A model generated the notes under the pieces. That model did not search any database. It worked only from the letters and a program-made list of their open reading frames with translations, and was not told the origin of the DNA. 32,000 nt of DNA from Desulfoluna butyratoxydans (lineage in GTDB: Bacteria; Desulfobacterota; Desulfobacteria; Desulfobacterales; Desulfolunaceae), in the NCBI RefSeq assembly GCF_900699765.1, contig NZ_CAADHO010000006.1:71770-103769 (forward strand), in the 5' to 3' direction. Positions 1 through 11,473 of the stretch are shown here, one piece after another. The translations under genes and the position numbers were made by a program. How positions within the stretch are numbered: position 1 is the stretch's first letter; each line of letters opens with the position of its first letter.

Positions 1-2010
1 AGGCGATATGCCCACGGGGTGATGAGCCTGGACAAAGGGGTGGGGCACCTCCGGCTTGGCGGGCGGATCTGGATTGTCTCCCACCATGTGTTGCCGGGCA
101 TCGGGTGGGTGCTGGGAAGCGCCGTGCCCGAGGATGCTCTTTTTGCCGGCCTGGAAAAGACCCGGGCCGCCTACGGCAGGGACACACGGCGCATGGGCTG
201 GGAGATCGTGATGGGGGCCGTGATTTTTACCTCCCTGGCCCTGGGGCTCTTCTATTTTGTGCTGAGGGAACGCCTGGTCCGCCCGCTTCGGGTTCTGGAG
301 CGGCAGGCGCAGCGGGTGAGCAGGGGGGATTTCGACGGAAAGACCGTCTCCCTGTCGGGAAAAGATGAGATGGCTCGCCTGGCTTGCTCCTTTAGCAGCA
401 TGATCGATTCGCTCAAAGAGGGGCGGGCTTTTCAGGAGCGGACCACAGAGCACCTGGAGGCCATGGTGCGGTCCCGGACTCGGGAGGTGGAGGAGAAGGC
501 CCGTGAGCTTCACACCGTGGTGACGGAGCTGACCACCATTTTTTCAAACAGCATGGTGGGGATCATGCTGCTCAAGGGGGGGCGGACCCTCTGGAAAGCC
601 AACGACAGAATGGCTGAGATCCTCGGTTACGATACCCCCGGGGAAATGGAGGGGCTCTCCATGAGGGAACTCCACCTCAGCGAAGATGCCTTCAGAAAGT
701 ACGGGGCCCATCATTACGACGCCCTGGTTCACGGGGGCAGGACCCAGATCGAGTACCGCCTGAAACGCCGGGACGGCTCTGCGGTGTGGTGCAGTCTTTC
801 GGGAAAGGCCGTGGATACCCATGTGCCTCCGGATCTCAACAAAGGGGTGCTCTGGGTGGTGGACGACATCTCCGAGCGCAAGGCCTCGGAGCAGGCGATC
901 CGTGAGAGCGAGGAGCGGTTCCGGGAGATGGCCGAACTGCTGCCCTGCATTGTGTGCGAAGTGGACCTGGCCCTTCGAGTCACCTACGTCAACAGCCTGG
1001 CGCTCAAGGCCTTTCAGATTCAGCCGGAAGATTTCGAGACCCCGGGCATCGCCCTTGATCCCTTTCACCCGGACGACCGGCCGCGGGTCATGGGGCGTGT
1101 GGAGATCACCCTGGCCGGAGGGGACGTGGAGCCCGCCGAGTACCGCATGATCAGCCGGGATGGAGAGGAGAGGCGGGTGTTGCTGCACTCGGCCCCCATC
1201 GTCAAAAACAGCGCTGTGGTGGGCATCCGGGCAAGCCTTGCCGATGTGACGGAGTATCGCGCCATGCAGGAGACCCTTCTCAAGCAGGGCAAACTCGATC
1301 TGATCGGTTCCTTTATCGGAGGCATCGCCCATGACTTCAACAACCTGCTTGCCGTCATGGTGGGGCGGGTGGAGCTGGCATCCCTCTGCCTTGATGAGGA
1401 ATCACCGGCCAGAAAGCATCTGGCGACCATGGATGAGGCCGTGCAGCGGGCCCGGGATCTGGTGGAACAGATGATCACCATGTCGAGCCGGGGGGAGAGG
1501 GTGGATGCCACGGTTTCGATTCAGGAGGTGCTTCGTCGGTGCGTGAAGCAGGCCGGGGGCCAGGGGGCCGGTGTGCATCTTGACCTGGAACCCGAAGCGC
1601 CGCCGGTGGCCGTGGACGGGGCCCAGATGGGACAGGCCATCGATGCCGTACTGAAGAATGCCCTGGAGGCCTGCGGCGGGAAAGGGACGGTATGGGTGAG
1701 CTGCGCCTGGTCCGACAGGGGACAGCGGAAGCTGCCTGCTCCCGGCGGGGCGCCTTGTGTGGACGTGACGATACGTGACTCGGGGTGCGGCATCGCCGAG
1801 GAGCATCTGCCCCATATCTTTGATCCGTATTACACGACCAAGGAGCGAAGCTCCCGCAAAGGCATGGGCTTCGGCCTTGCCGTGACCCACGCGGTGGTCA
1901 CACGCCACCGGGGAACCCTTACCGTGGATTCCCGGCCTGGTGAGGGGACAACGGTCTCTATCAGCCTTCCCGTTGAAGGCACCGCCTCCGTGCGCGGATC
2001 AGAGACCTGA
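1..2010 (+). CDS. Sensor histidine kinase (TM-HAMP-PAS-PAS-HisKA-HATPase_c), 5' end probably cut by the window edge
   Basis: ORF 19..2010, and the frame stays open back to nt 1. One TM segment ([15 protein letters not shown]) is followed by a HAMP-like linker and two PAS-like blocks. H-box IAHDFNNLL; ATPase boxes DSGCGI and GMGFGL. The residues before the TM look like the tail of a periplasmic sensor domain, so the true start is likely upstream of the window. Confidence 0.85.
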
Positions 2011-5359: not shown

Positions 5360-6775
5360 ATGCATCTTTTACGGAATGGGAGGGCCGGGCATGGTCCGTC
5401 GTTGCTGCTGGGGGCGCTGTGCGTCCTTCTGTCGCCGATCTGCGCCTGCGCTCTGGAGCCGGTGTCCCTTCAGCTGAAGTGGACCCATTATTTTCAATTT
5501 GCAGGGTACTATGCCGCCCTGGAAAAGGGCTTTTACGAAGACGAGGGGCTTGAGGTGACTCTCCTGGAAGGCGGCTCCCGAAAGCAGGGTCCGGTGAAGG
5601 CCGTGACCCAGGGAAAGGCCACTTACGGCGTGGCCGGTTCGGAGCTGCTTTTGTGGCGTCTCAATGGGATGCCCGTTGTGGCCCTTGCTCCGGTGTTCCA
5701 GCACTCTGCCACGGTGATGCTCGTGCGGCAGGATTCGGGGATCTCATCTCCCCAGGATTTTGCAGGGCGTCGTCTCGAAATGGGCGAAAAAGCCAACGAT
5801 GCTGAAGTCTGGGCCATGATCCGGGCCGAAGGGCTGAATCCGGACCAGTTTACACGGGTCCAGAATGATTTTTCAATTGAGGATCTCATCGCAAAACGGG
5901 TGGACGGGCTCTCCACCTACGTCACCACCGATCCTTTTGTGATGCGTCAGAAAAAGATTCCCTACCGCGTGATCCGTCCCCTTCAATACGGCATCGATTT
6001 TTACGGCGATACCCTGTTTACAACCGAAGCGGAAGTGCGCAGGCACCCCGATCGGGCCCGCCGTATGGTGCGGGCGTCCATGAAGGGGTGGCGCTACGCC
6101 TTCGAGCATCCCGATGAGATCATCGACCTCATCCTTGGGACCTACGTCAAAGGGGCGGGCAGCCCCTCCCGCGAGCACCTCGCCTATGAATTCGAGGAGA
6201 TGAAACAGCTTGTTCTTCCCCGTCTGGTGGAGCTGGGCCACATGAACGAAGGGCGCTGGAACCACATGGCCGAGACCCTTGTGCGCATCGGCCTGGCAGA
6301 CCCGGGGTACGATTTGTCCGGGTTCTTCTACAAGGCTGCCGCCCCGCTCCCTTTTAACTGGGACCACTGGGCGGTGAGGGGGGGCGGGGTAGCCCTGATT
6401 CTGGCCGTCTCCGTGGGGGTCTGTCTCTGTTTTTACAATCGGAGGATGCGGGCGGAAATCTGTCGGCGTATCCAGAGCGAGGAGGAGCGCGAGCAGCTCA
6501 TCACAGAGCTGACCCAGGCCCTGGAAGAGGTCCGGGAACTCAACGGGCTGCTCCCCATCTGTTCCAGCTGCTTTAAGGTAAGAAACGACAAGGGGTACTG
6601 GGAGAAGCTGGAGAGCTACATCGAAAGCCACACCAAGGCCCGCTTCAGCCACGGTATCTGCACCGAATGCATGAAGCAGCGTTACCCCTACCTGTTTGAT
6701 GAAGAGGAGGATGCCGACGGGGACGCCGACGCCCTGTACAACGAGGAGTCCGGCACCCTGCCCCCGTCTTCGTAA
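5360..6775 (+). CDS. Transmembrane receptor: periplasmic NMT1/THI5-type (NitT/TauT) solute-binding fold, TM, coiled coil, and a C-terminal Cys/His-rich module of unknown function
   Basis: ATG 5360 gives the signal/anchor LLLGALCVLLSPICACA. The segment LQLKWTHYFQFAGYYAALEKGFYEDEGLEV... resembles SBP family proteins. TM is ALILAVSVGVCLCFY, followed by EEEREQLITELTQALEEVRELNG. The C-terminal module is CSSC-x19-H-x6-H-x2-CTEC (nt 6560-6670), then an acidic tail. Alternative start at 5291. Confidence 0.75.
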   Translation: MHLLRNGRAGHGPSLLLGALCVLLSPICACALEPVSLQLKWTHYFQFAGYYAALEKGFYEDEGLEVTLLEGGSRKQGPVKAVTQGKATYGVAGSELLLWRLNGMPVVALAPVFQHSATVMLVRQDSGISSPQDFAGRRLEMGEKANDAEVWAMIRAEGLNPDQFTRVQNDFSIEDLIAKRVDGLSTYVTTDPFVMRQKKIPYRVIRPLQYGIDFYGDTLFTTEAEVRRHPDRARRMVRASMKGWRYAFEHPDEIIDLILGTYVKGAGSPSREHLAYEFEEMKQLVLPRLVELGHMNEGRWNHMAETLVRIGLADPGYDLSGFFYKAAAPLPFNWDHWAVRGGGVALILAVSVGVCLCFYNRRMRAEICRRIQSEEEREQLITELTQALEEVRELNGLLPICSSCFKVRNDKGYWEKLESYIESHTKARFSHGICTECMKQRYPYLFDEEEDADGDADALYNEESGTLPPSS

Positions 6776-6784
6776 CGATTCGGG

Positions 6785-8590
6785 CTATTCCTCTGTCATG
6801 GCCTGCCGGGCCGGTATGTCAATGACAAAGCTGGCCCCCCCGAGGTCCCCCTGGCCGATGCGGATGGTGCCGTTGTGATCCATGACGATGCGCTGGCTGA
6901 GGCTGAGTCCGATGCCGGTGCCGTCGCTTTTGGTGGTGTAAAACGGGTCGAACACGCAGTCCCGGATTCGCTGGGGCACGCCGGGACCGGAGTCCGAGAC
7001 GCTGATGAGTACCCGTCCCGATTCCATGGTTGTGTTCACCTGGATGACCCGGGGGCCGGGCAGCTCTTCCATGGCTTCGGCGGCGTTGTGGATCAGGTTC
7101 ATCATCACCCGAAGCAGCAGGTTGCTGTCTGCGTAGCAGGGGAGGGGCTCTTTGCTGAGGCTTGTCTCCACGCGGATGTCGTTTTTTCGAAGGGAGGCCT
7201 CGGTGAGCCCCAGGGCATGGGTGACGGGTTCGTTTGCATCCATCACCCTGAACAGGGGCATGCCCGGCTTGAGAAAGTCCATGGCCCGCCTGATGACCGT
7301 TTCAATGTCGCAGGATGCCTCCTTGAGCTGGCGGATGCATTTTTGGGTCTTTTCTTCCTGGCCGGGGTCCCCGGCGACTTTCTCCAGGACGCCCAGGTAG
7401 AGGTTGATGCCGGACAAGGGGTTGCGGATCTCATGGGCGATGCCTGCGGTCACCCGTCCCAGGGAAGCCATCTTGTCCTTGATGCCCACCATGTGCTCCA
7501 GCTCCTTGGCCCGGGTGACGTCGATCATGTTGAGCAGGACAGACTCCTTTTCCTGGTAGACGATGCGAGCCGCCCGGCAGTGGACCCACCTTGTTTTGGG
7601 CCCTTTGTCGCCCTCGGTGGACGGCAGGAAACAGAAGTCGGACTCGTTGCAGGTGACCTCGCCGCTTTGCACCACCTCGATAAACCGTTTGATGCTCTCC
7701 CTGTCGTCATCGTGGGGGGCAATGTGGCTGAAGACGTCTCCGTTGTCCTGCATGGGGCCGAAGAGCCTCTCCTGTTCCGGGTTCTGATAGACCACGCGGT
7801 TGCCCTGGATGATGGAGATGCCCACCGGTGAGTTGACGACCAGGTCAAGGAACTGCTTTCGGCTTGCCTTCAGGGCCTTTTCCGCCCGTTTGAATTCCGT
7901 GATGTCGGTGACAAACCCGTCCACGGAGAGGAACTCGTCCCGGGGGCCGTAAAGCCCCACCCCCTGCTCCCAGACCCACTTTTTTTCCCCTGATGCCGTG
8001 GTGATGCGGTAGATCAGCCGATACGGTTTTTTTTCCGCCAGGGCCTCCATGATGGTCTCCCGGTTGGGACCGATGTCGTCGGGGTGGACCACTTTTTGGG
8101 CGTAACAGAGCTCCATGCCCGGTGCGCACAGGCTCTTGTAGCCGGTGAGCTCCTGGCACCCCTCGCTGGTGTAGTCCATGGGCCAGTTCTCTTTGTCCAC
8201 GCGGTGGCTGAAGGCCATGCCCGGGAGGTTGCTTACCAGGGTGGCCAGCCTGTGGCGGCTCGCCCGCAGCTCTTTTTCCGCGGATTGCCGTTGGGCCAGC
8301 TCAAGGGTGAGCTCCCGGTTTTTTGCATTGAGCCGTTTGCGCAGGGTGAGGTTCCAGGCCATGGCAAGCCCGCATGCGGCAACGGCAAGGAGAAGGGCCG
8401 GGGACAAAGGGGAAGGCGGCTGGGAAAGGGGTGTTTCGGCAAAGGCCGCCCCAGGCAGGAGCGTGGCCGCCAAACCGGTTCCCGCAACTGTGCAGATCAT
8501 GGCACACAGCCTGTTGGTGACAGTGATAAGTGAGCGCATAATATCCTGATATCCCATGATGATGGTGTAAGTATGGCGATATGATGGCAC
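6785..8590 (-). CDS. Sensor histidine kinase (TM, 2 PAS-like, HisKA, HATPase_c)
   Basis: H-box GIAHEIRNPLSGI; ATPase boxes HNAAEAM, DSGPGV and GTGIGLS. N-terminal hydrophobic segments are present. The start is ambiguous: GTG 8590 or ATG 8539 (MRSLITV...). Confidence 0.85.
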   Translation of the reverse strand: MPSYRHTYTIIMGYQDIMRSLITVTNRLCAMICTVAGTGLAATLLPGAAFAETPLSQPPSPLSPALLLAVAACGLAMAWNLTLRKRLNAKNRELTLELAQRQSAEKELRASRHRLATLVSNLPGMAFSHRVDKENWPMDYTSEGCQELTGYKSLCAPGMELCYAQKVVHPDDIGPNRETIMEALAEKKPYRLIYRITTASGEKKWVWEQGVGLYGPRDEFLSVDGFVTDITEFKRAEKALKASRKQFLDLVVNSPVGISIIQGNRVVYQNPEQERLFGPMQDNGDVFSHIAPHDDDRESIKRFIEVVQSGEVTCNESDFCFLPSTEGDKGPKTRWVHCRAARIVYQEKESVLLNMIDVTRAKELEHMVGIKDKMASLGRVTAGIAHEIRNPLSGINLYLGVLEKVAGDPGQEEKTQKCIRQLKEASCDIETVIRRAMDFLKPGMPLFRVMDANEPVTHALGLTEASLRKNDIRVETSLSKEPLPCYADSNLLLRVMMNLIHNAAEAMEELPGPRVIQVNTTMESGRVLISVSDSGPGVPQRIRDCVFDPFYTTKSDGTGIGLSLSQRIVMDHNGTIRIGQGDLGGASFVIDIPARQAMTEE

Positions 8591-8783
8591 ACTTTGTAGT
8601 CAAATAGAATATCAATAATAATTTATTTTATAAAATTTAGTATTCCATGATGACGACCTCTCCGGCATGGCCACCACCCGGAACATGGCAGGGCCGTGAT
8701 TTTTTTCTTTGACTCTCCCCCAGGGGCGGGCTTCAGGGTGGTGGTCATGTGAACGCGGAACAACAGAAAAGAGAAGGCGGAGT

Positions 8784-9584
8784 ATGTACAATATCGGCAC
8801 ATTTTCACGGATCACGGGCCTGACCATCAAAGCCCTCAGGCTCTACCACGAACGGGGCATTCTGGTGCCCCGCTTTGTGGACGAGAAGAGCGGCTACCGG
8901 TACTACAACCGGGACGACGCGGCCAGGGCCCGCGTGGTGGTGGCCTTGAAGGCCATGGACTGCTCCTTGTCGGAGATCCGGCACGTCATGGCCCACTGCG
9001 CCGATGAGTCCGACCTGGTGGGATTCCTCCAGAACAAAAGGGAGACCCTCCAGGCCGAGATCGCAAGGCTCCACGACATCTCTTCTGTCATTGACCGCAT
9101 CATCAACCGAGAAAGAGAGGTCATTAAGATGCAAGGAAAAACATTTGAGGTGGAAGTAAAATGCGTGGAACCCCAGCTGGTGGTTGCCCACCGCTGGACC
9201 GGGGCGTGGCAGGAGATCGGCGAGGTGGTGCTCAAACTGCGGGGCGCAGCGGAACAGGCGATTTCAGGCCCTGTGGTAAACCTCTGCTACAACGATGAGT
9301 ACAAAGAATTCGACGCCGACATTGAGGTGTGCATGCCCCTGTCACAGCCCGTGGAAAGCCCCTGGACCTGCCGCACCCTCGAAGGGGGCGAATTCGCCAC
9401 CCTGCTGCACCGGGGCCCCTTTGAAACCTTGGGAGAGAGCTACCTCCGGGTCTTTGACTGGATCGACGCCTCGGGCCGCAAAGCCGGCCTGCCCACCCGC
9501 CAGGTGGTCCACAAAGGCCCCGGTCCTCTCCTTGAAGGAGACCCGAATAACTACCTGACGGAGGTCCAGGTTCCCCTGATCTAA
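8784..9584 (+). CDS. MerR-family transcriptional regulator with GyrI-like effector-binding C-terminal domain
   Basis: ATG 8784 is preceded by GAAGGCGGAG. The N-terminal HTH MYNIGTFSRITGLTIKALRLYHERGIL is typical of MerR regulators. The C-terminal roughly 150 aa resemble a GyrI-like/AraC-E-binding fold. Confidence 0.85.
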   Translation: MYNIGTFSRITGLTIKALRLYHERGILVPRFVDEKSGYRYYNRDDAARARVVVALKAMDCSLSEIRHVMAHCADESDLVGFLQNKRETLQAEIARLHDISSVIDRIINREREVIKMQGKTFEVEVKCVEPQLVVAHRWTGAWQEIGEVVLKLRGAAEQAISGPVVNLCYNDEYKEFDADIEVCMPLSQPVESPWTCRTLEGGEFATLLHRGPFETLGESYLRVFDWIDASGRKAGLPTRQVVHKGPGPLLEGDPNNYLTEVQVPLI

Positions 9585-9595
9585 GCCCGTTGCCA

Positions 9596-9790
9596 CTGTT
9601 CAGCTCAAAAAAAGCCTCCGGCGGCCCTGCCGGGGGCCAAACTTTTAAAAAGTTTGACAAACAGGTCTTGTGACGGTCTCGGCTCCGCTGAACGTTATCA
9701 GCACGCCGACCGTATCAAACGTATGGGGTCTGTATCGAAATGTTTTTGCGGAGCTTTTTTCAAAAAGCGACCCGCCGGAGGCAACTGAGT
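9596..9790. repeat. Mosaic intergenic repeat cluster R1: M2(+) 9614-9666 and M3(-) 9748-9782, bounded by inverted 12-mers
   Basis: gcctccggcggc at 9614-9625 and the inverse cccgccggaggc at 9771-9782. The M2 module recurs at 11836-11901(-), 18830-18881(-), 28294-28344(+) and 29622-29673(-). M3 is near-identical to 29520-29560(+). Confidence 0.85.
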
Positions 9791-9911
9791 TGGCACACGC
9801 GTTGGCCCTGTTTTAAAAGCGGATTGCCCTTGTGCTTCCCCCATGATTGCGATGCCTGGAAGAATCGACTGGGATGGTTATGAAACAGATTGATTTTTTT
9901 TACCTGATAAG

Positions 9912-9924
9912 CTAGCATGCTAAC
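9912..9924. promoter_or_regulatory. Candidate MarR operator box 1 (CTAGCATGCTAAC, contains the 10-bp perfect palindrome TAGCATGCTA)
   Basis: Lies 52 nt upstream of the marR-like start. The same 13-mer with one R substitution (CTAGCGTGCTAAC) recurs at 10443-10455, upstream of the permease genes. Confidence 0.5.
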
Positions 9925-9975
9925 AAAAAAGTGGATTGGCCATTCTGCCGTCTCATTTTACCCAAGGAAGATATC

Positions 9976-10413
9976 ATGAAAGGGATAGACCCCAACGAAA
10001 GCCTCGGTTTCCAATGCAATCTCACGGTGAAAGCCTTTGTGGGAGCCCTTGAAGAGAAACTCAAAGGGACCGGGGTGTCGCCGTCTCAGCACCGGGCCCT
10101 GGCTCACCTCATCGCCCTGGGGCCTTTGCCCCTCACCGACCTGGTGAAGCGGCTGGGCATTGCCACGCCCACCGGCGTGCGCCTGGTGGATCGCATGGAG
10201 CGGGACGGCTGGGTAACGCGGGAGCCGGACCCCGAGGACAGCAGGCGTAAAATGCTTGTCCCCACGGAAAAGGCCCATGAGGTCTGGGCAACCATCTCGG
10301 TGGTTTCAAAGGAGATGCTGGCCCAGGCCTATCAAGGCGTGGCTCCTGAAGAGATCGAGCGGGTCATCGCGGTGCTTGAAAGGGTGCGTGAAAATCTCTC
10401 CAGTTCCCATTAG
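9976..10413 (+). CDS. MarR-family transcriptional regulator
   Basis: ATG 9976 lies 5 nt after AAGGAAG. The winged-helix segment is LPLTDLVKRLGIATPTGVRLVDRMERDGWVTREPDPEDSRRKMLVPT. Confidence 0.85.
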   Translation: MKGIDPNESLGFQCNLTVKAFVGALEEKLKGTGVSPSQHRALAHLIALGPLPLTDLVKRLGIATPTGVRLVDRMERDGWVTREPDPEDSRRKMLVPTEKAHEVWATISVVSKEMLAQAYQGVAPEEIERVIAVLERVRENLSSSH

Positions 10414-10442
10414 CCTTCGGTCCCCTTTTTTTATTGTAAAAC

Positions 10443-10455
10443 CTAGCGTGCTAAC
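10443..10455. promoter_or_regulatory. Candidate MarR operator box 2 (CTAGCGTGCTAAC)
   Basis: Second copy of the 13-mer, 18 nt upstream of the permease start at 10473. It follows an 8-T run after the marR stop. Confidence 0.45.
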
Positions 10456-10472
10456 ATTACGGGGAAGTGCTT

Positions 10473-10952
10473 ATGTTTAACATCATGTTGTACCTGGCAG
10501 CTTTTGTGCTGCTTCTGGTCTCCTATGCCAAAGACAAAGGAAAGACACGGAAGGCTCTGATGAAAGCCTGGAAGTCGTTTGAGAACCTGATGCCCCAGTT
10601 CCTCGTCATTCTGCTGGTCATCGGGTTTCTCCTGGCGGCCGTCGGCCCAGAAACCATCACACAGCTATTGGGGCAGAATTCCGGCTGGGTGGGGATGGGC
10701 ATGGCAGCCCTCATCGGGTCTGTGACCCTTATTCCCGGCTTTGTGGCCTTTCCGCTTACGGCGGCCCTATACGAACACGGGGGAGGGCTCATGCAGCTGG
10801 CCGTCTTTGTATCCACCCTCATGGGGGTGGGCGTGGTGACCCTTCCCGTTGAAATGGGGATTTTCGGGCTGCGGGTCTCCCTGGCCCGCAACCTGTTAAA
10901 CGTGCTGCTGGCCTTTGGAGTGGCCGTGGTCATGGGGGTGGTGCTTACATGA
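10473..10952 (+). CDS. Membrane permease, first half of a split two-gene permease (predicted-permease/DUF318-like)
   Basis: Four to five hydrophobic helices. ATG 10473 lies 5 nt after GGGGAAG; the GTG at 10467 is less likely. The stop overlaps the next start (ATGA). Family assignment is from memory only. Confidence 0.7.
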   Translation: MFNIMLYLAAFVLLLVSYAKDKGKTRKALMKAWKSFENLMPQFLVILLVIGFLLAAVGPETITQLLGQNSGWVGMGMAALIGSVTLIPGFVAFPLTAALYEHGGGLMQLAVFVSTLMGVGVVTLPVEMGIFGLRVSLARNLLNVLLAFGVAVVMGVVLT

Positions 10953-11473
10953 TACCCTTGCTTAAACGCTACCGTGTTTTTCTTTTGATGCTCGTAGCCT
11001 TGGGTGGCCTTGGTTACGTTAACGCAGACCTTGCAGCACGCTCCCTGGGGCACTCCGTGGATTACCTCGTGGAGATGCTGCTGGTGATTCCACCCATTTT
11101 TGTGCTTTTGGGCATTTTTGATGTGTGGGTGCCTCGGGAAACCATCGTGAGGCTCATGGGCGGGGAGTCCGGTGCCAAGGGCACGCTTCTGGCCCTCTGT
11201 CTGGGCTCGTTTGCTGCAGGACCGCTTTACGCAGCGTTTCCCGTGGCCGGGGTGCTGATCAAAAAAGGGGCGCGCTTTTCGAATATCATGATCTTTATCG
11301 GGGCCTGGTCCACCACCAAGGTTCCCATGCTTCTCTTTGAAGCCTCATCCATGGGCTGGGATTTCATGCTGTGCCGACTGGTGATGAACCTGACGGGGCT
11401 CATGGCCATTGCCCACATTCTGGATGCGCTGTTGCCCGAGGAGCACAAGGCCCTGTCTCCTGCAGGCTCATGA
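10949..11473 (+). CDS. Membrane permease, second half of the split permease
   Basis: Has a 4-nt overlap with the upstream ORF and multiple TM helices. The motif FAAGPLYAAFPVAGVLIKKGARFSNIMIFIGAW is similar in style to the first half. Confidence 0.7.
   Translation: MIPLLKRYRVFLLMLVALGGLGYVNADLAARSLGHSVDYLVEMLLVIPPIFVLLGIFDVWVPRETIVRLMGGESGAKGTLLALCLGSFAAGPLYAAFPVAGVLIKKGARFSNIMIFIGAWSTTKVPMLLFEASSMGWDFMLCRLVMNLTGLMAIAHILDALLPEEHKALSPAGS

What the first reader, a model, noticed from the sequence alone, without database searches (positions are those of the whole stretch)
5360..6775. Periplasmic-binding-fold receptor with a CxxC-x19-H-x6-H-x2-CxxC C-terminal module in place of a known output domain
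Seen directly. The protein has a signal/anchor, a roughly 330-aa NMT1/THI5-type solute-binding fold, one TM helix and a heptad-like acidic linker (EEEREQLITELTQALEEVRELNG). It then carries a 37-aa block, CSSCFKVRNDKGYWEKLESYIESHTKARFSHGICTEC (nt 6560-6670), and ends in an acidic tail. No kinase, GGDEF, HD-GYP, MCP or DNA-binding domain is visible. From memory, similar LPIC-x2-C-K-x-R-D/N-D-x-G-Y-W...FSHG-x-C-P/T-x-C tails occur at the C-termini of PAS and receiver proteins in delta-proteobacteria, and I know of no assigned function. Four Cys and two His suggest a zinc-ribbon-like metal site. The gene is convergent with, and 9 nt from, a PAS histidine kinase (6785-8590), which could be a partner. 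That pairing is inference.
Basis: partly seen in the sequence, partly recalled or inferred. Interest (0 to 1): 0.65.

Follow-up and report, generated by a model that had tools for sequence, protein, structure and literature searches.

The report
Undescribed zinc-type output domain on sensor
This gene encodes a membrane receptor whose only cytoplasmic domain is a small, very strongly conserved four-cysteine module that ends tens of thousands of bacterial sensor and response-regulator protein families, has no database model, and was not described in any paper I could find.

Summary
ORF 5360-6775 (+) encodes a signal or anchor sequence, an NMT1/ThiY-type periplasmic binding domain, one TM helix, a heptad linker and the block CSSC-x29-CTEC at nt 6560-6670.

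- **Family size.** A profile of the block finds 24,508 cluster representatives, 20,298 of them at E<=1e-10. The block is almost always at the extreme C-terminus.
- **Spacing and residues.** The spacing C-x2-C-x29-C-x2-C is fixed. All four Cys and one His (S-H-G) are conserved.
- **Partners.** The block follows PAS, GAF, REC, HAMP, MASE, Cache and SBP sensor domains. It never accompanied a known output domain.
- **Output position.** Homologues of this sensor domain carry GGDEF or kinase domains at the same position. HK-[REC-module] operons also exist. It therefore behaves as an output domain.
- **No match.** Pfam, NCBIfam, PDB sequence searches, Foldseek and ten literature searches found nothing.
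- **Coupling.** The PAS-to-module linker is a fixed 35 residues, which suggests a rigid coiled coil driving a paired module.
- **Neighbours.** No conserved neighbour exists. The adjacent kinase is syntenic only within Desulfoluna.

The function remains inferred. The most likely one is a Zn(Cys)4 protein-interaction output acting on a shared target.

The parts
5360..6775 (+). Whole gene: 471-aa transmembrane receptor (NMT1-type sensor, TM helix, coiled-coil linker, C4 module, acidic tail), stop codon included
   Evidence: The ORF and its translation are. Orthologues of 471 aa share 96% identity.
5360..5458 (+). N-terminal signal peptide or membrane anchor (aa 1-33, ...LLLGALCVLLSPICACA)
   Evidence: This is read directly from the translation. 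Whether it is cleaved was not tested.
5459..6367 (+). Periplasmic NMT1/THI5/ThiY-type solute-binding sensor domain (aa 34-336; Pfam core aa 45-253 = nt 5492-6118)
   Evidence: Pfam PF09084 matches at E=7e-50. The closest solved structures are 4nmy, an ABC solute-binding protein (5e-19), and 3ix1, ThiY, which binds formylaminopyrimidine (3e-16).
6368..6433 (+). Single transmembrane helix (aa 337-358, WAVRGGGVALILAVSVGVCLCF)
   Evidence: The hydrophobic stretch is seen in the translation, and coordinates were computed.
6434..6547 (+). Cytoplasmic helical, heptad 'signalling-helix' linker (aa 359-396, YNRRMRAEICRRIQSEEEREQLITELTQALEEVRELNG)
   Evidence: The consensus EEERExLIxELxxALxxVKTLxG is conserved across the family. 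AF2 predicts a helix. The PAS-to-module distance is fixed at 35 aa in 166/172 proteins, and in 19/23 of an independently selected set.
6548..6697 (+). Conserved C-terminal module (aa 397-446, LLPICSSCFKVRNDKGYWEKLESYIESHTKARFSHGICTECMKQRYPYLF). The four Cys are C401, C404, C434 and C437. The conserved His is H431.
   Evidence: The family profile finds 24,508 representatives. The module is the most conserved part of the protein among orthologues, at 90-92% identity against 64-67% for the sensor domain.
6560..6670 (+).
   Evidence: The regex hit falls exactly at 6560-6670. The 29-residue spacing occurs in 283 of 284 modules.
6698..6772 (+). Acidic C-terminal tail (aa 447-471, DEEEDADGDADALYNEESGTLPPSS). 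It is specific to the Desulfoluna-like clade and is not part of the family-wide module.
   Evidence: Alignment A5 shows the tail conserved only in the closest orthologues and absent in P0180, P0185 and P0189.
6785..8590 (-). Convergent neighbour: a PAS-PAS-HisKA-HATPase histidine kinase. It is context only and is not shown to be a partner.
   Evidence: Pfam domains are. Synteny holds only within Desulfoluna and is absent in L081.

Best explanation
The gene encodes a transmembrane, one-component-type receptor.

**What is shown**
- A periplasmic NMT1/ThiY-type solute-binding domain is joined to a single TM helix.
- The TM helix continues into a heptad-repeat helix.
- That helix runs straight into a ~50-residue module, P-I-C-x2-C-K-x-I-R-D/N-D-x-G-Y-W-x3-E-x-Y-...-F-S-H-G-x-C-P-x-C.
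- The module is a widespread, autonomous effector (output) domain of bacterial signalling proteins. This includes phospho-accepting response regulators encoded next to their kinases.

**What is inferred**
1. The four invariant Cys hold a structural Zn(II), or another tetrahedral metal, that folds the mini-domain.
2. The receptor is a parallel dimer, so two modules sit side by side at the end of a coiled coil.
3. Ligand binding outside changes the register or rotation of that coiled coil. This changes how the two modules present their invariant polar surface (K, R, D, D, E, S-H-G, LYP).
4. Output is signal-dependent binding or release of a cytoplasmic macromolecule. That target is the same for all paralogues, so many sensors feed one hub, as in chemoreceptor-CheA/W logic. 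Output is not paralogue-specific promoter recognition.
For: **Output-domain status**
- In 102 representatives the module follows only input or transmitter domains: PAS 78, MASE6 12, REC 9, GAF 7, and also HAMP, MASE3, PocR, CHASE3, dCache and SBP_bac_3. It never accompanies HisKA/HATPase, GGDEF, EAL, MCP or HTH.
- It lies 5-35 residues from the C-terminus in nearly all proteins.
- Homologues of the same NMT1 sensor carry GGDEF or HisKA/HWE kinase domains where this protein has the module.
- Loci L058, L066 and L054 hold adjacent or overlapping HK -> REC-module gene pairs.

**Structural metal site**
- The four Cys are 100% conserved and the spacing is fixed in 283/284 modules.
- Degenerate internal copies in two-unit proteins lose S-H-G and LYP but keep all four Cys.
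- The sequence contexts of both knuckles resemble the structural Zn(Cys)4 site of Fur/PerR proteins. hhalign gives score 34 and P=6e-7, against 12.4+/-3.2 for Cys-fixed column shuffles.

**Rigid helical coupling of a dimer**
- The linker has a conserved heptad pattern.
- The PAS 'DIT' motif to first Cys distance is 35 aa (5 heptads) in 166/172 proteins. It is also 35 aa in 19/23 proteins chosen through the sensor domain alone.
- TM-to-Cys and REC-to-Cys distances cluster at values 7 apart: 32/39/46 and 41/48.

**Shared target rather than DNA specificity**
- The module is 55-67% identical across phyla.
- It is the most conserved segment among orthologues.
- Its mean net charge is -0.8 and its median pI is 6.3.
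- No neighbour gene is conserved in 74 + 8 loci.
Against: - No experiment, solved structure or detectable homologue supports any particular activity.
- Metal binding is untested.
- The two AF2 models (pLDDT 82-83) differ in secondary structure.
- No candidate partner was identified. A hub encoded elsewhere is an assumption.
- The Fur similarity is confined to the two knuckle contexts. Shuffling only the middle leaves the score unchanged at 34.7+/-4.1. It therefore supports only a 'structural Zn site' by analogy.
- The linker-length statistics come partly from hits selected with a profile that included the linker.
- High conservation could equally reflect catalysis or nucleic-acid binding.
Confidence: 0.5

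Rival explanations
1. The module is a small zinc-finger nucleic-acid-binding domain. The protein would then be a membrane-tethered (ToxR/CadC-like) transcription factor. The soluble PAS/REC versions would be ordinary one-component regulators or response regulators that bind DNA or RNA as dimers.
For: - The partner domains (REC, PAS, GAF, HAMP) are the same ones that precede HTH or ANTAR outputs.
- HK -> REC-module operons look like classical two-component pairs, most of which end in DNA binding.
- K7, K8 and R10 are conserved next to the first knuckle.
- Many C4 treble-clef and zinc-ribbon domains bind nucleic acids (general knowledge).
Against: - The module is on average slightly acidic, with net charge -0.8+/-1.8 and median pI 6.3.
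- In this protein it is followed by a strongly acidic tail.
- Residues are nearly invariant among paralogues and across phyla. That leaves no obvious specificity-determining positions for different operators.
- A large share of family members are integral membrane proteins, such as MASE6 and NMT1-TM types.
- No HTH-like or known DNA-binding zinc-finger model matches.
Confidence: 0.12
2. The module is not an output but a redox- or metal-responsive element, or merely a Zn-stapled dimerisation cap. It could be a thiol/Zn switch like Hsp33 or RsrA, or a rubredoxin-like Fe(Cys)4 or Fe-S site. Oxidation or metal loss would change the oligomeric state of the sensor.
For: - There are two CxxC pairs, the second being C-P-x-C at a helix N-terminus.
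- Most carriers among the best 80 genomic loci are anaerobes: Thermodesulfobacteriota, Nitrospirota, Ignavibacteria and Anaerolineae.
- The knuckle contexts resemble the structural Zn site of the Fur/PerR dimerisation domain.
- Internal degenerate copies keep the Cys.
Against: - On this reading, more than 20,000 protein families would consist of inputs only, with no output.
- The invariant non-Cys polar residues and the His that is lost only in internal copies argue for a functional surface beyond metal binding.
- The module replaces GGDEF or kinase domains in homologous receptors.
- It also occurs in lineages such as Chthoniobacteraceae, Bryobacteraceae and Bacteroidota. I take these to include aerobes from general knowledge, which I did not test.
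Confidence: 0.15
3. This particular protein is an accessory ligand sensor for the convergent PAS histidine kinase (6785-8590). On this reading the module docks on the kinase and modulates it.
For: - The genes are 9 nt apart.
- The arrangement is kept in Desulfoluna spongiiphila and in 96%-identical MAG contigs.
- Kinase or PAS genes are the commonest neighbours of module genes, occurring in 13 of 74 loci.
Against: - The orientation is convergent, so there is no co-transcription.
- The kinase is absent next to the 69%-identical orthologue in otherwise syntenic DNA (L081).
- It is also absent in four other NMT1-module loci.
- Of the upstream same-strand kinase neighbours checked, three (L058, L066, L054) are the cognate kinase of a REC-module regulator rather than a target of the module.
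- Signalling genes cluster generally in these genomes.
Confidence: 0.08
4. The paired modules form a minimal catalytic or phosphotransfer site. The invariant S-H-G histidine would act either as a phospho-acceptor downstream of REC or as a catalytic residue with the metal.
For: - Conserved polar residues (K, R, D, D, E, S, H) are unusually dense for a 45-residue domain.
- The His is lost specifically in internal, presumably inactive copies.
- Dimer geometry appears to matter, as it does for GGDEF cyclases and kinases.
Against: - The domain is very small.
- It has no similarity to HPt, His-Me finger or any enzyme family by sequence or fold.
- No nucleotide-binding motif is present.
Confidence: 0.05

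Closest known systems
Transmembrane sensors with a solute-binding-protein-fold periplasmic domain fused to GGDEF or histidine-kinase outputs (NMT1-TM-GGDEF and NMT1-TM-PAS-HisKA-HATPase homologues found here)
   Same: - The sensor domain is homologous, at 40-53% identity.
- The topology is the same, and a helical linker leaves the membrane in the same way.
   Different: - The catalytic output domain is replaced by a ~50-aa C4 module with no known activity.
- 95 of the 121 closest homologues have the module. That makes it the commonest output for this sensor subfamily in this sample.
Structural Zn(Cys)4 site of the Fur/PerR/Zur C-terminal dimerisation domain (e.g. B. subtilis PerR, PDB 2fe3)
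   Same: - Both have two CxxC knuckles in similar sequence contexts: I-C-x2-C-G/K-K-I-x-D ... [SH]-H ... G-I/V-C-x2-C-x-K.
- hhalign gives 92% probability and P=6e-7, well above Cys-fixed shuffles.
- Both lie at the C-terminus of dimeric regulators.
   Different: - The similarity vanishes as evidence once the knuckle contexts are held fixed.
- The spacing is 29 residues against 36.
- There is no winged-helix DNA-binding domain and no regulatory metal site.
- The Pfam FUR model was not among the family matches listed, and Foldseek does not retrieve Fur structures.
CZB (chemoreceptor zinc-binding) domain at the C-terminus of MCPs and diguanylate cyclases (TlpD, DgcZ)
   Same: It is a zinc-binding module found at the C-terminal end of bacterial signalling proteins. 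This rests on my own knowledge. PMC8262984 appeared in the list returned by search.
   Different: - CZB is a four-helix bundle with a 3His/1Cys site. It acts as a sensor and always accompanies a real output domain (my own knowledge).
- The module here is C4 and about 50 aa long.
- It has no Pfam match.
- It is the only non-sensor domain in its proteins.
Zinc-binding anti-sigma domains (ZAS, H-x3-C-x2-C; CsfB/Gin C4)
   Same: It is a small Zn-stabilised domain that works purely by sequestering a protein partner. It is often part of a membrane-spanning sensor. This is a functional analogy for the favoured mechanism.
   Different: - The motif here is H-x2-C-x2-C with an additional N-terminal CxxC.
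- The membrane orientation is opposite, with the module C-terminal to the TM helix.
- No adjacent sigma-factor gene was found.
- Only one of 41 modules gave even a weak Gin hit, at E=0.014.
Signalling helix (S-helix) and PAS-to-kinase coiled-coil linkers
   Same: A heptad helix of discrete length joins the sensor to the effector. The concept follows PMC1592074.
   Different: - The effector is not a kinase or cyclase.
- The PAS linker has essentially one length class (35 aa), rather than several.

Membership tests
NMT1/THI5-like solute-binding fold (PF09084), used as a periplasmic sensor domain | HMM match above the curated threshold | tested here: met
   The score is 170.3 bits against a cut-off of 20.5, with E=7e-50, over aa 45-253.
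NMT1/THI5-like solute-binding fold (PF09084), used as a periplasmic sensor domain | Similarity to solved class-II SBPs of this family | tested here: met
   Hits are 4nmy at 5e-19, 3ix1 (ThiY) at 3e-16, and THI5/THI13 at about 5e-6. The ligand is not predictable from this.
NMT1/THI5-like solute-binding fold (PF09084), used as a periplasmic sensor domain | Extracytoplasmic location between an N-terminal signal or anchor and a TM helix | tested here: inconclusive
   Hydrophobic segments at aa ~14-33 and 337-358 are seen in the translation. No topology predictor was available.
C4 zinc ribbon / treble-clef mini-domain | Two invariant CxxC knuckles | tested here: met
   All four Cys are 100% conserved in 280 unique modules, and the spacing is fixed at 29.
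C4 zinc ribbon / treble-clef mini-domain | Knuckle, beta-hairpin, then a helix whose N-terminus gives the second ligand pair | tested here: inconclusive
The module-only AF2 model (pLDDT 83) shows this order with an extra helix. Foldseek finds no PDB relative; the best E-values are 1.8 and 2.3.
C4 zinc ribbon / treble-clef mini-domain | Stoichiometric metal binding | not testable with these tools
   This needs ICP-MS or a PAR assay on purified protein.
Signal-transduction output (effector) domain | C-terminal to diverse input or receiver domains, and mutually exclusive with other outputs | tested here: met
   See the Pfam survey of 102 representatives, the GGDEF or kinase domains at the same position in sensor homologues, and the HK -> REC-module operons.
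Signal-transduction output (effector) domain | A demonstrated downstream activity or partner | not testable with these tools
   No conserved neighbour was found. No literature was found either.
Known outputs: HisKA/HATPase_c, GGDEF, EAL, HD-GYP, MCPsignal, HTH, ANTAR, PP2C | HMM match in the cytoplasmic part | tested here: not met
   There is no Pfam or NCBIfam hit in aa 359-471 at E<=1, apart from zf-C4pol at E=0.68.
Fur-family C-terminal dimerisation domain | Homology extending beyond the Zn knuckles | tested here: not met
   The hhalign score is 34.0. Shuffling only the 28 columns between the knuckle contexts gives 34.7+/-4.1, and 128 of 200 shuffles score >=34.
Fur-family C-terminal dimerisation domain | N-terminal winged-helix DNA-binding domain | tested here: not met
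   It is absent from this protein and from the 102 surveyed members.
ZAS anti-sigma domain | H-x3-C-x2-C motif and a zf-HC2 model match | tested here: not met
   The motif here is H-x2-C-x2-C. zf-HC2 was not among the family matches listed at E<=10.
Cognate partner of the adjacent histidine kinase | Adjacency conserved across orthologues | tested here: not met
   The kinase is present in L084-L086. It is absent in L081 and L087-L090.

The most novel reading that the evidence does not exclude
The coiled-coil-plus-C4 module defines a previously undescribed output pathway of bacterial signal transduction. Dozens of sensors per genome, both one-component receptors and response regulators, would converge through an identical Zn-stapled mini-domain on a single, still unknown cellular target. 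This would hold across Thermodesulfobacteriota, Nitrospirota, PVC, Bacteroidota/Ignavibacteria, Spirochaetota, Acidobacteriota and other phyla. If so, it is a fourth or fifth general signalling currency alongside phosphorelay, c-di-GMP, chemotaxis arrays and partner switching.
Probability: 0.35. Interest if true: 0.85.

Novelty: new variant of a known kind. Interest (0 to 1): 0.68.

Why it matters
Censuses of bacterial signalling count proteins by their output domains. Proteins that end in this module are currently labelled 'PAS domain S-box protein', 'ABC transporter substrate-binding protein', 'response regulator' or 'hypothetical'. Their output is therefore invisible.

A module with these properties marks a real gap:
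- It has at least 20,000 cluster representatives at 50% identity.
- It is 55-67% identical across phyla.
- Its linker geometry is fixed.
- It substitutes for GGDEF and kinase domains.

Finding its target would assign an output to thousands of orphan sensors. Many of these are in sulfate reducers, syntrophs, nitrite oxidisers and spirochaetes. It could also reveal a new regulatory hub. For this window in particular, the gene is not an ABC-transporter component. It is a receptor for an unknown, possibly pyrimidine-like, periplasmic ligand.

Tried and rejected
- **Pfam and NCBIfam on the whole protein.** Nothing covers the C-terminus.
- **Pfam at E<=10 on 41 isolated modules.**
  - The commonest hit is DUF3039 (30/41), but it covers only 10-11 residues of one knuckle.
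  - zf-C4pol, Zn_ribbon_HMPTM, PhnA and Gin are also below threshold.
  - I rejected all of these as knuckle-level noise.
- **PDB by sequence (phmmer and profile).** Nothing is significant. The best hit is 7yjw_A 'membrane protein' at E=0.035 over 26 residues. It could not be followed up because no paper was found.
- **Two AF2 models with Foldseek against PDB.** No match had E<1.
- **Fur/PerR resemblance.**
  - I recalled this from memory and checked my PerR sequence against 2fe3.
  - hhalign looked promising.
  - A stricter control showed that the signal lies only in the knuckle contexts.
  - It was therefore not accepted as homology.
- **Gene-neighbourhood clustering of 74 loci, plus 8 look-ups of sensor orthologues.** Only generic kinase/PAS and single-REC neighbours recur.
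- **Riboswitch in the 348-nt upstream region.** None was found.
- **Plasmid collection.** There was a single hit, an IS-disrupted gene.
- **Ten literature searches.** These used motif strings, zinc-ribbon and output-domain keywords, S-helix and census papers. None describes the module.
- **Galperin's 2006 response-regulator classification.** It could not be opened under the PMC id I guessed.
Full report
**1. The observation**

ORF 5360-6775 (+) is intact and encodes 471 aa.
- Pfam finds NMT1 (PF09084) at aa 45-253 with E=7e-50, and nothing else above noise. NCBIfam gives only sub-threshold SsuA/SaoX/TAXI solute-binding hits.
- A hydrophobic N-terminus and a second hydrophobic helix (aa 337-358) bracket the binding domain.
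- Downstream lie a heptad linker (aa 359-396) and the block CSSCFKVRNDKGYWEKLESYIESHTKARFSHGICTEC at nt 6560-6670. An acidic tail follows.
- The block is the only such block in the six frames of the window.
- The convergent gene 9 nt away (6785-8590) is a PAS-PAS-HisKA-HATPase kinase.

**2. The block is a real, very large family**
- The last 82 aa retrieve 24 short proteins at E=1e-15 to 1e-26 and 55-67% identity.
- A profile built from their alignment was searched against 1.84 billion cluster representatives. It finds 24,508 proteins at E<=1e-3, 20,298 at E<=1e-10 and 6,890 at E<=1e-30.
- In the listed hits the block lies 5-35 residues from the C-terminus in nearly every protein.
- From 280 unique modules, the spacing C-x2-C-x29-C-x2-C holds in 283 of 284 matches.
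- Conserved positions are the four Cys, Pro1 and Trp16 (all 100%), Gly14 99%, Arg10 98%, Lys7 96%, Tyr22 96%, Asp12 95%, Glu20 94%, Phe31 94%, His33 94% and Ser32 91%.
The site is therefore C4 plus one conserved His, not C4H2.

**3. The company it keeps**
- Among 102 representatives, the domains N-terminal to the module are PAS (78), MASE6 (12), REC (9), GAF (7), HAMP, Tll0287, MASE3, PocR, CHASE3, dCache and SBP_bac_3.
- None has a kinase, GGDEF, EAL, MCP or HTH domain.
- A few proteins are two complete sensor-module units in tandem. Nothing else follows the module in them.
- In those proteins one copy, usually the internal one, has usually lost S-H-G and the trailing L-Y-P. It keeps all four Cys and the K-I-R-D-D-x-G-Y-W hairpin. 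This suggests the Cys are structural and the His face is functional.

**4. The module sits in the output position**
- A search with the whole protein gives 1,691 homologues at E<=1e-10.
- Of the best 121, 95 end in the module. It is joined either directly after the TM helix or through a PAS or GAF domain.
- The 26 without it include ones that Pfam marks as GGDEF proteins, and two marked as histidine kinases of the HisKA or HWE type.
- In loci L058, L066 and L054 a HisKA-HATPase kinase gene is immediately followed, or overlapped, by a REC-module gene. These are ordinary two-component operons in which the module is the regulator's effector domain.

**5. Distribution**

The best 80 come from the following groups:
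- Thermodesulfobacteriota
- Nitrospirota
- Verrucomicrobiota and Victivallales
- Ignavibacteria and Bacteroidota
- Spirochaetaceae
- Acidobacteriota
- Anaerolineae
- Poribacteria
- Latescibacterota
- Hydrogenedentota
- one Altiarchaeota MAG

One Ignavibacteria locus carries up to five module copies in 20 kb.

**6. No known relative**
- PDB sequence searches, both single-sequence and profile, give nothing significant.
- Two AF2 models (pLDDT 82 and 83) give no Foldseek match better than E=1.8.
- Sub-threshold Pfam hits on isolated modules cover single knuckles only.
- I recalled that Fur/PerR proteins have I-C-x2-C-G-K-I-x-D ... G-I-C-x2-C. My PerR sequence was verified against 2fe3.
- hhalign of the module profile against four Fur-family C-terminal domains gives 92% probability and score 34.0. 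Column shuffles that keep only the Cys give 12.4+/-3.2.
- Shuffling only the region between the two knuckle contexts leaves the score at 34.7+/-4.1.
- The resemblance is therefore limited to the two knuckle contexts. It supports a structural Zn(Cys)4 site by analogy, not homology.
- Ten full-text searches found no description of the module. The S-helix paper does not mention it.

**7. Clues to mechanism**
- *(a) Heptad linker.* The linker consensus EEERExLIxELxxALxxVKTLxG has an a/d hydrophobic pattern and is predicted helical.
- *(b) Fixed PAS-to-module distance.*
  - The distance from the PAS C-terminal D-I-T motif to the first Cys is 35 residues in 166 of 172 unique proteins.
  - It is also 35 in 19 of 23 proteins that were selected through their sensor domain only.
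- *(c) Heptad steps elsewhere.* TM-to-Cys distances cluster at 22/29 and 32/39/46. REC-to-Cys distances cluster at 41/48. These are heptad steps, but boundaries are fuzzy and numbers are small.
- *(d) Strongest constraint.* Against 64-67%-identical sensor domains, the module is 90-92% identical. In Desulfoluna spongiiphila the sensor domain has a ~130-aa internal deletion, yet the cytoplasmic part is ~99% identical.
- *(e) Charge.* The module is slightly acidic on average, with net charge -0.8+/-1.8 and pI 6.3.
- *(f) No conserved neighbour.* Clustering of neighbours in 74 loci recovers only PAS/kinase genes (13 loci) and single REC genes (11 loci). Eight look-ups of orthologous receptors show unrelated surroundings beyond the genus.

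**8. Interpretation**

*Shown:* this is a transmembrane receptor whose periplasmic NMT1/ThiY-like domain is coupled by a TM helix and a rigid helix to a widespread signalling effector domain. No model or description of that domain was found. The closest solved structures to the sensor domain are 4nmy and ThiY 3ix1.

*Inferred:*
- The four Cys bind a structural Zn.
- The protein is a parallel dimer, with two modules at the tip of a coiled coil.
- Signalling changes the geometry of this pair.
- Output is binding or release of a cytoplasmic macromolecule common to all paralogues.

The last step rests on near-invariance of surface residues among paralogues, neutral charge, frequent membrane anchoring and the lack of a linked partner gene. 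It is the weakest step.

*Rivals:*
- Nucleic-acid binding.
- A redox or metal switch, or a mere dimerisation cap.
- A catalytic or phosphotransfer role for the conserved His.
- For this gene only, modulation of the neighbouring kinase. The kinase is absent beside the 69%-identical orthologue in otherwise syntenic DNA, and the genes are convergent, so I rate that pairing low.

**9. Origin and context**
- The synteny matches Desulfoluna spongiiphila and related MAGs. The gene order is dCache-HAMP-PAS kinase, pterin-4a dehydratase, OMP beta-barrel, RidA, this gene, kinase, MerR-GyrI, MarR, split ArsP permease and branched-chain ABC transporter.
- Terminator-like hairpins after the RidA gene and the convergent downstream gene suggest a monocistronic unit.
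- No riboswitch is detected upstream.

**10. Verdict**

The two-His detail and the kinase pairing are not upheld. The module is a widespread candidate output domain with no model in the libraries searched and no description that I could find. Its function remains to be discovered.

Noticed in passing
L084:6001-7014 (Desulfoluna spongiiphila LR701292.1) vs window 5360-6775: The D. spongiiphila orthologue (337 aa, annotated 'ABC transporter substrate-binding protein') lacks about 130 aa from the middle of the sensor domain. From the TM helix to the C-terminus it is ~99% identical to the window protein, acidic tail included. The sensor part may be decaying while the cytoplasmic part is kept, or there may have been recent recombination.
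   Followed up: partly
window 6785-11473 vs L081:7408-8817: Relative to the 69%-identical syntenic locus L081, the window and D. spongiiphila carry extra genes in this stretch. The PAS kinase lies between the receptor gene and the MerR/GyrI gene. The MarR gene and two half-size ArsP_1 permease ORFs (10467-10952 and 10949-11473, overlapping by 4 nt) lie between MerR/GyrI and the ABC-transporter genes. The split permease is conserved in L084 and L085, so it is probably a genuine two-gene permease and not a frameshift.
   Followed up: partly
P0037, P0039, P0044, P0045, P0047, P0048, P0063, P0065, P0082, P0163 (internal copies at aa ~150-235); also P0025-P0035: A subfamily of ~500-550-aa proteins carries two modules. 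In most of them the internal copy keeps the four Cys and the KIRDDxGYW hairpin but has lost S-H-G and L-Y-P. In P0031, P0033 and P0035 it is the C-terminal copy that lacks the His. Other proteins are exact tandem duplications of (REC-module) or (membrane sensor-module).
   Followed up: partly
L050:5904-17049 (Ignavibacteriae MAG PMDB01000083.1): Four consecutive same-strand genes for large sensor proteins each end in the module. One copy is disrupted or holds an ambiguous base. They lie downstream of a small kinase and a LuxR-type regulator. This is a local expansion of module paralogues.
   Followed up: no
family-wide: The distance from the PAS C-terminal D-I-T motif to the first Cys of the module is 35 residues in ~97% of PAS-module proteins. 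This is a single linker-length class, unlike the several classes I recall (not checked here) for PAS-kinase linkers.
   Followed up: yes
L091:831-4138 (Dongshaea marina plasmid NZ_CP028898.1): This was the only hit in 72,556 plasmids. A GAF-domain gene appears to have been split from its C-terminal module by an IS21 insertion, and the module remnant is unannotated. It shows the module also occurs in a gammaproteobacterium.
   Followed up: partly
window 19-2010 (+): The HAMP-PAS-PAS-HisKA-HATPase kinase runs off the left end of the window. In orthologous loci it is a 981-990-aa dCache-HAMP-PAS kinase.
   Followed up: no
PDB 7yjw_A residues 17-41: A solved 'membrane protein' of 330 aa has IPICLVCK-IREEKGTYKNLEEALRN, which resembles the first knuckle and hairpin of the module (profile E=0.035). 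No paper citing 7YJW was found, so its identity and relevance are unknown.
   Followed up: partly
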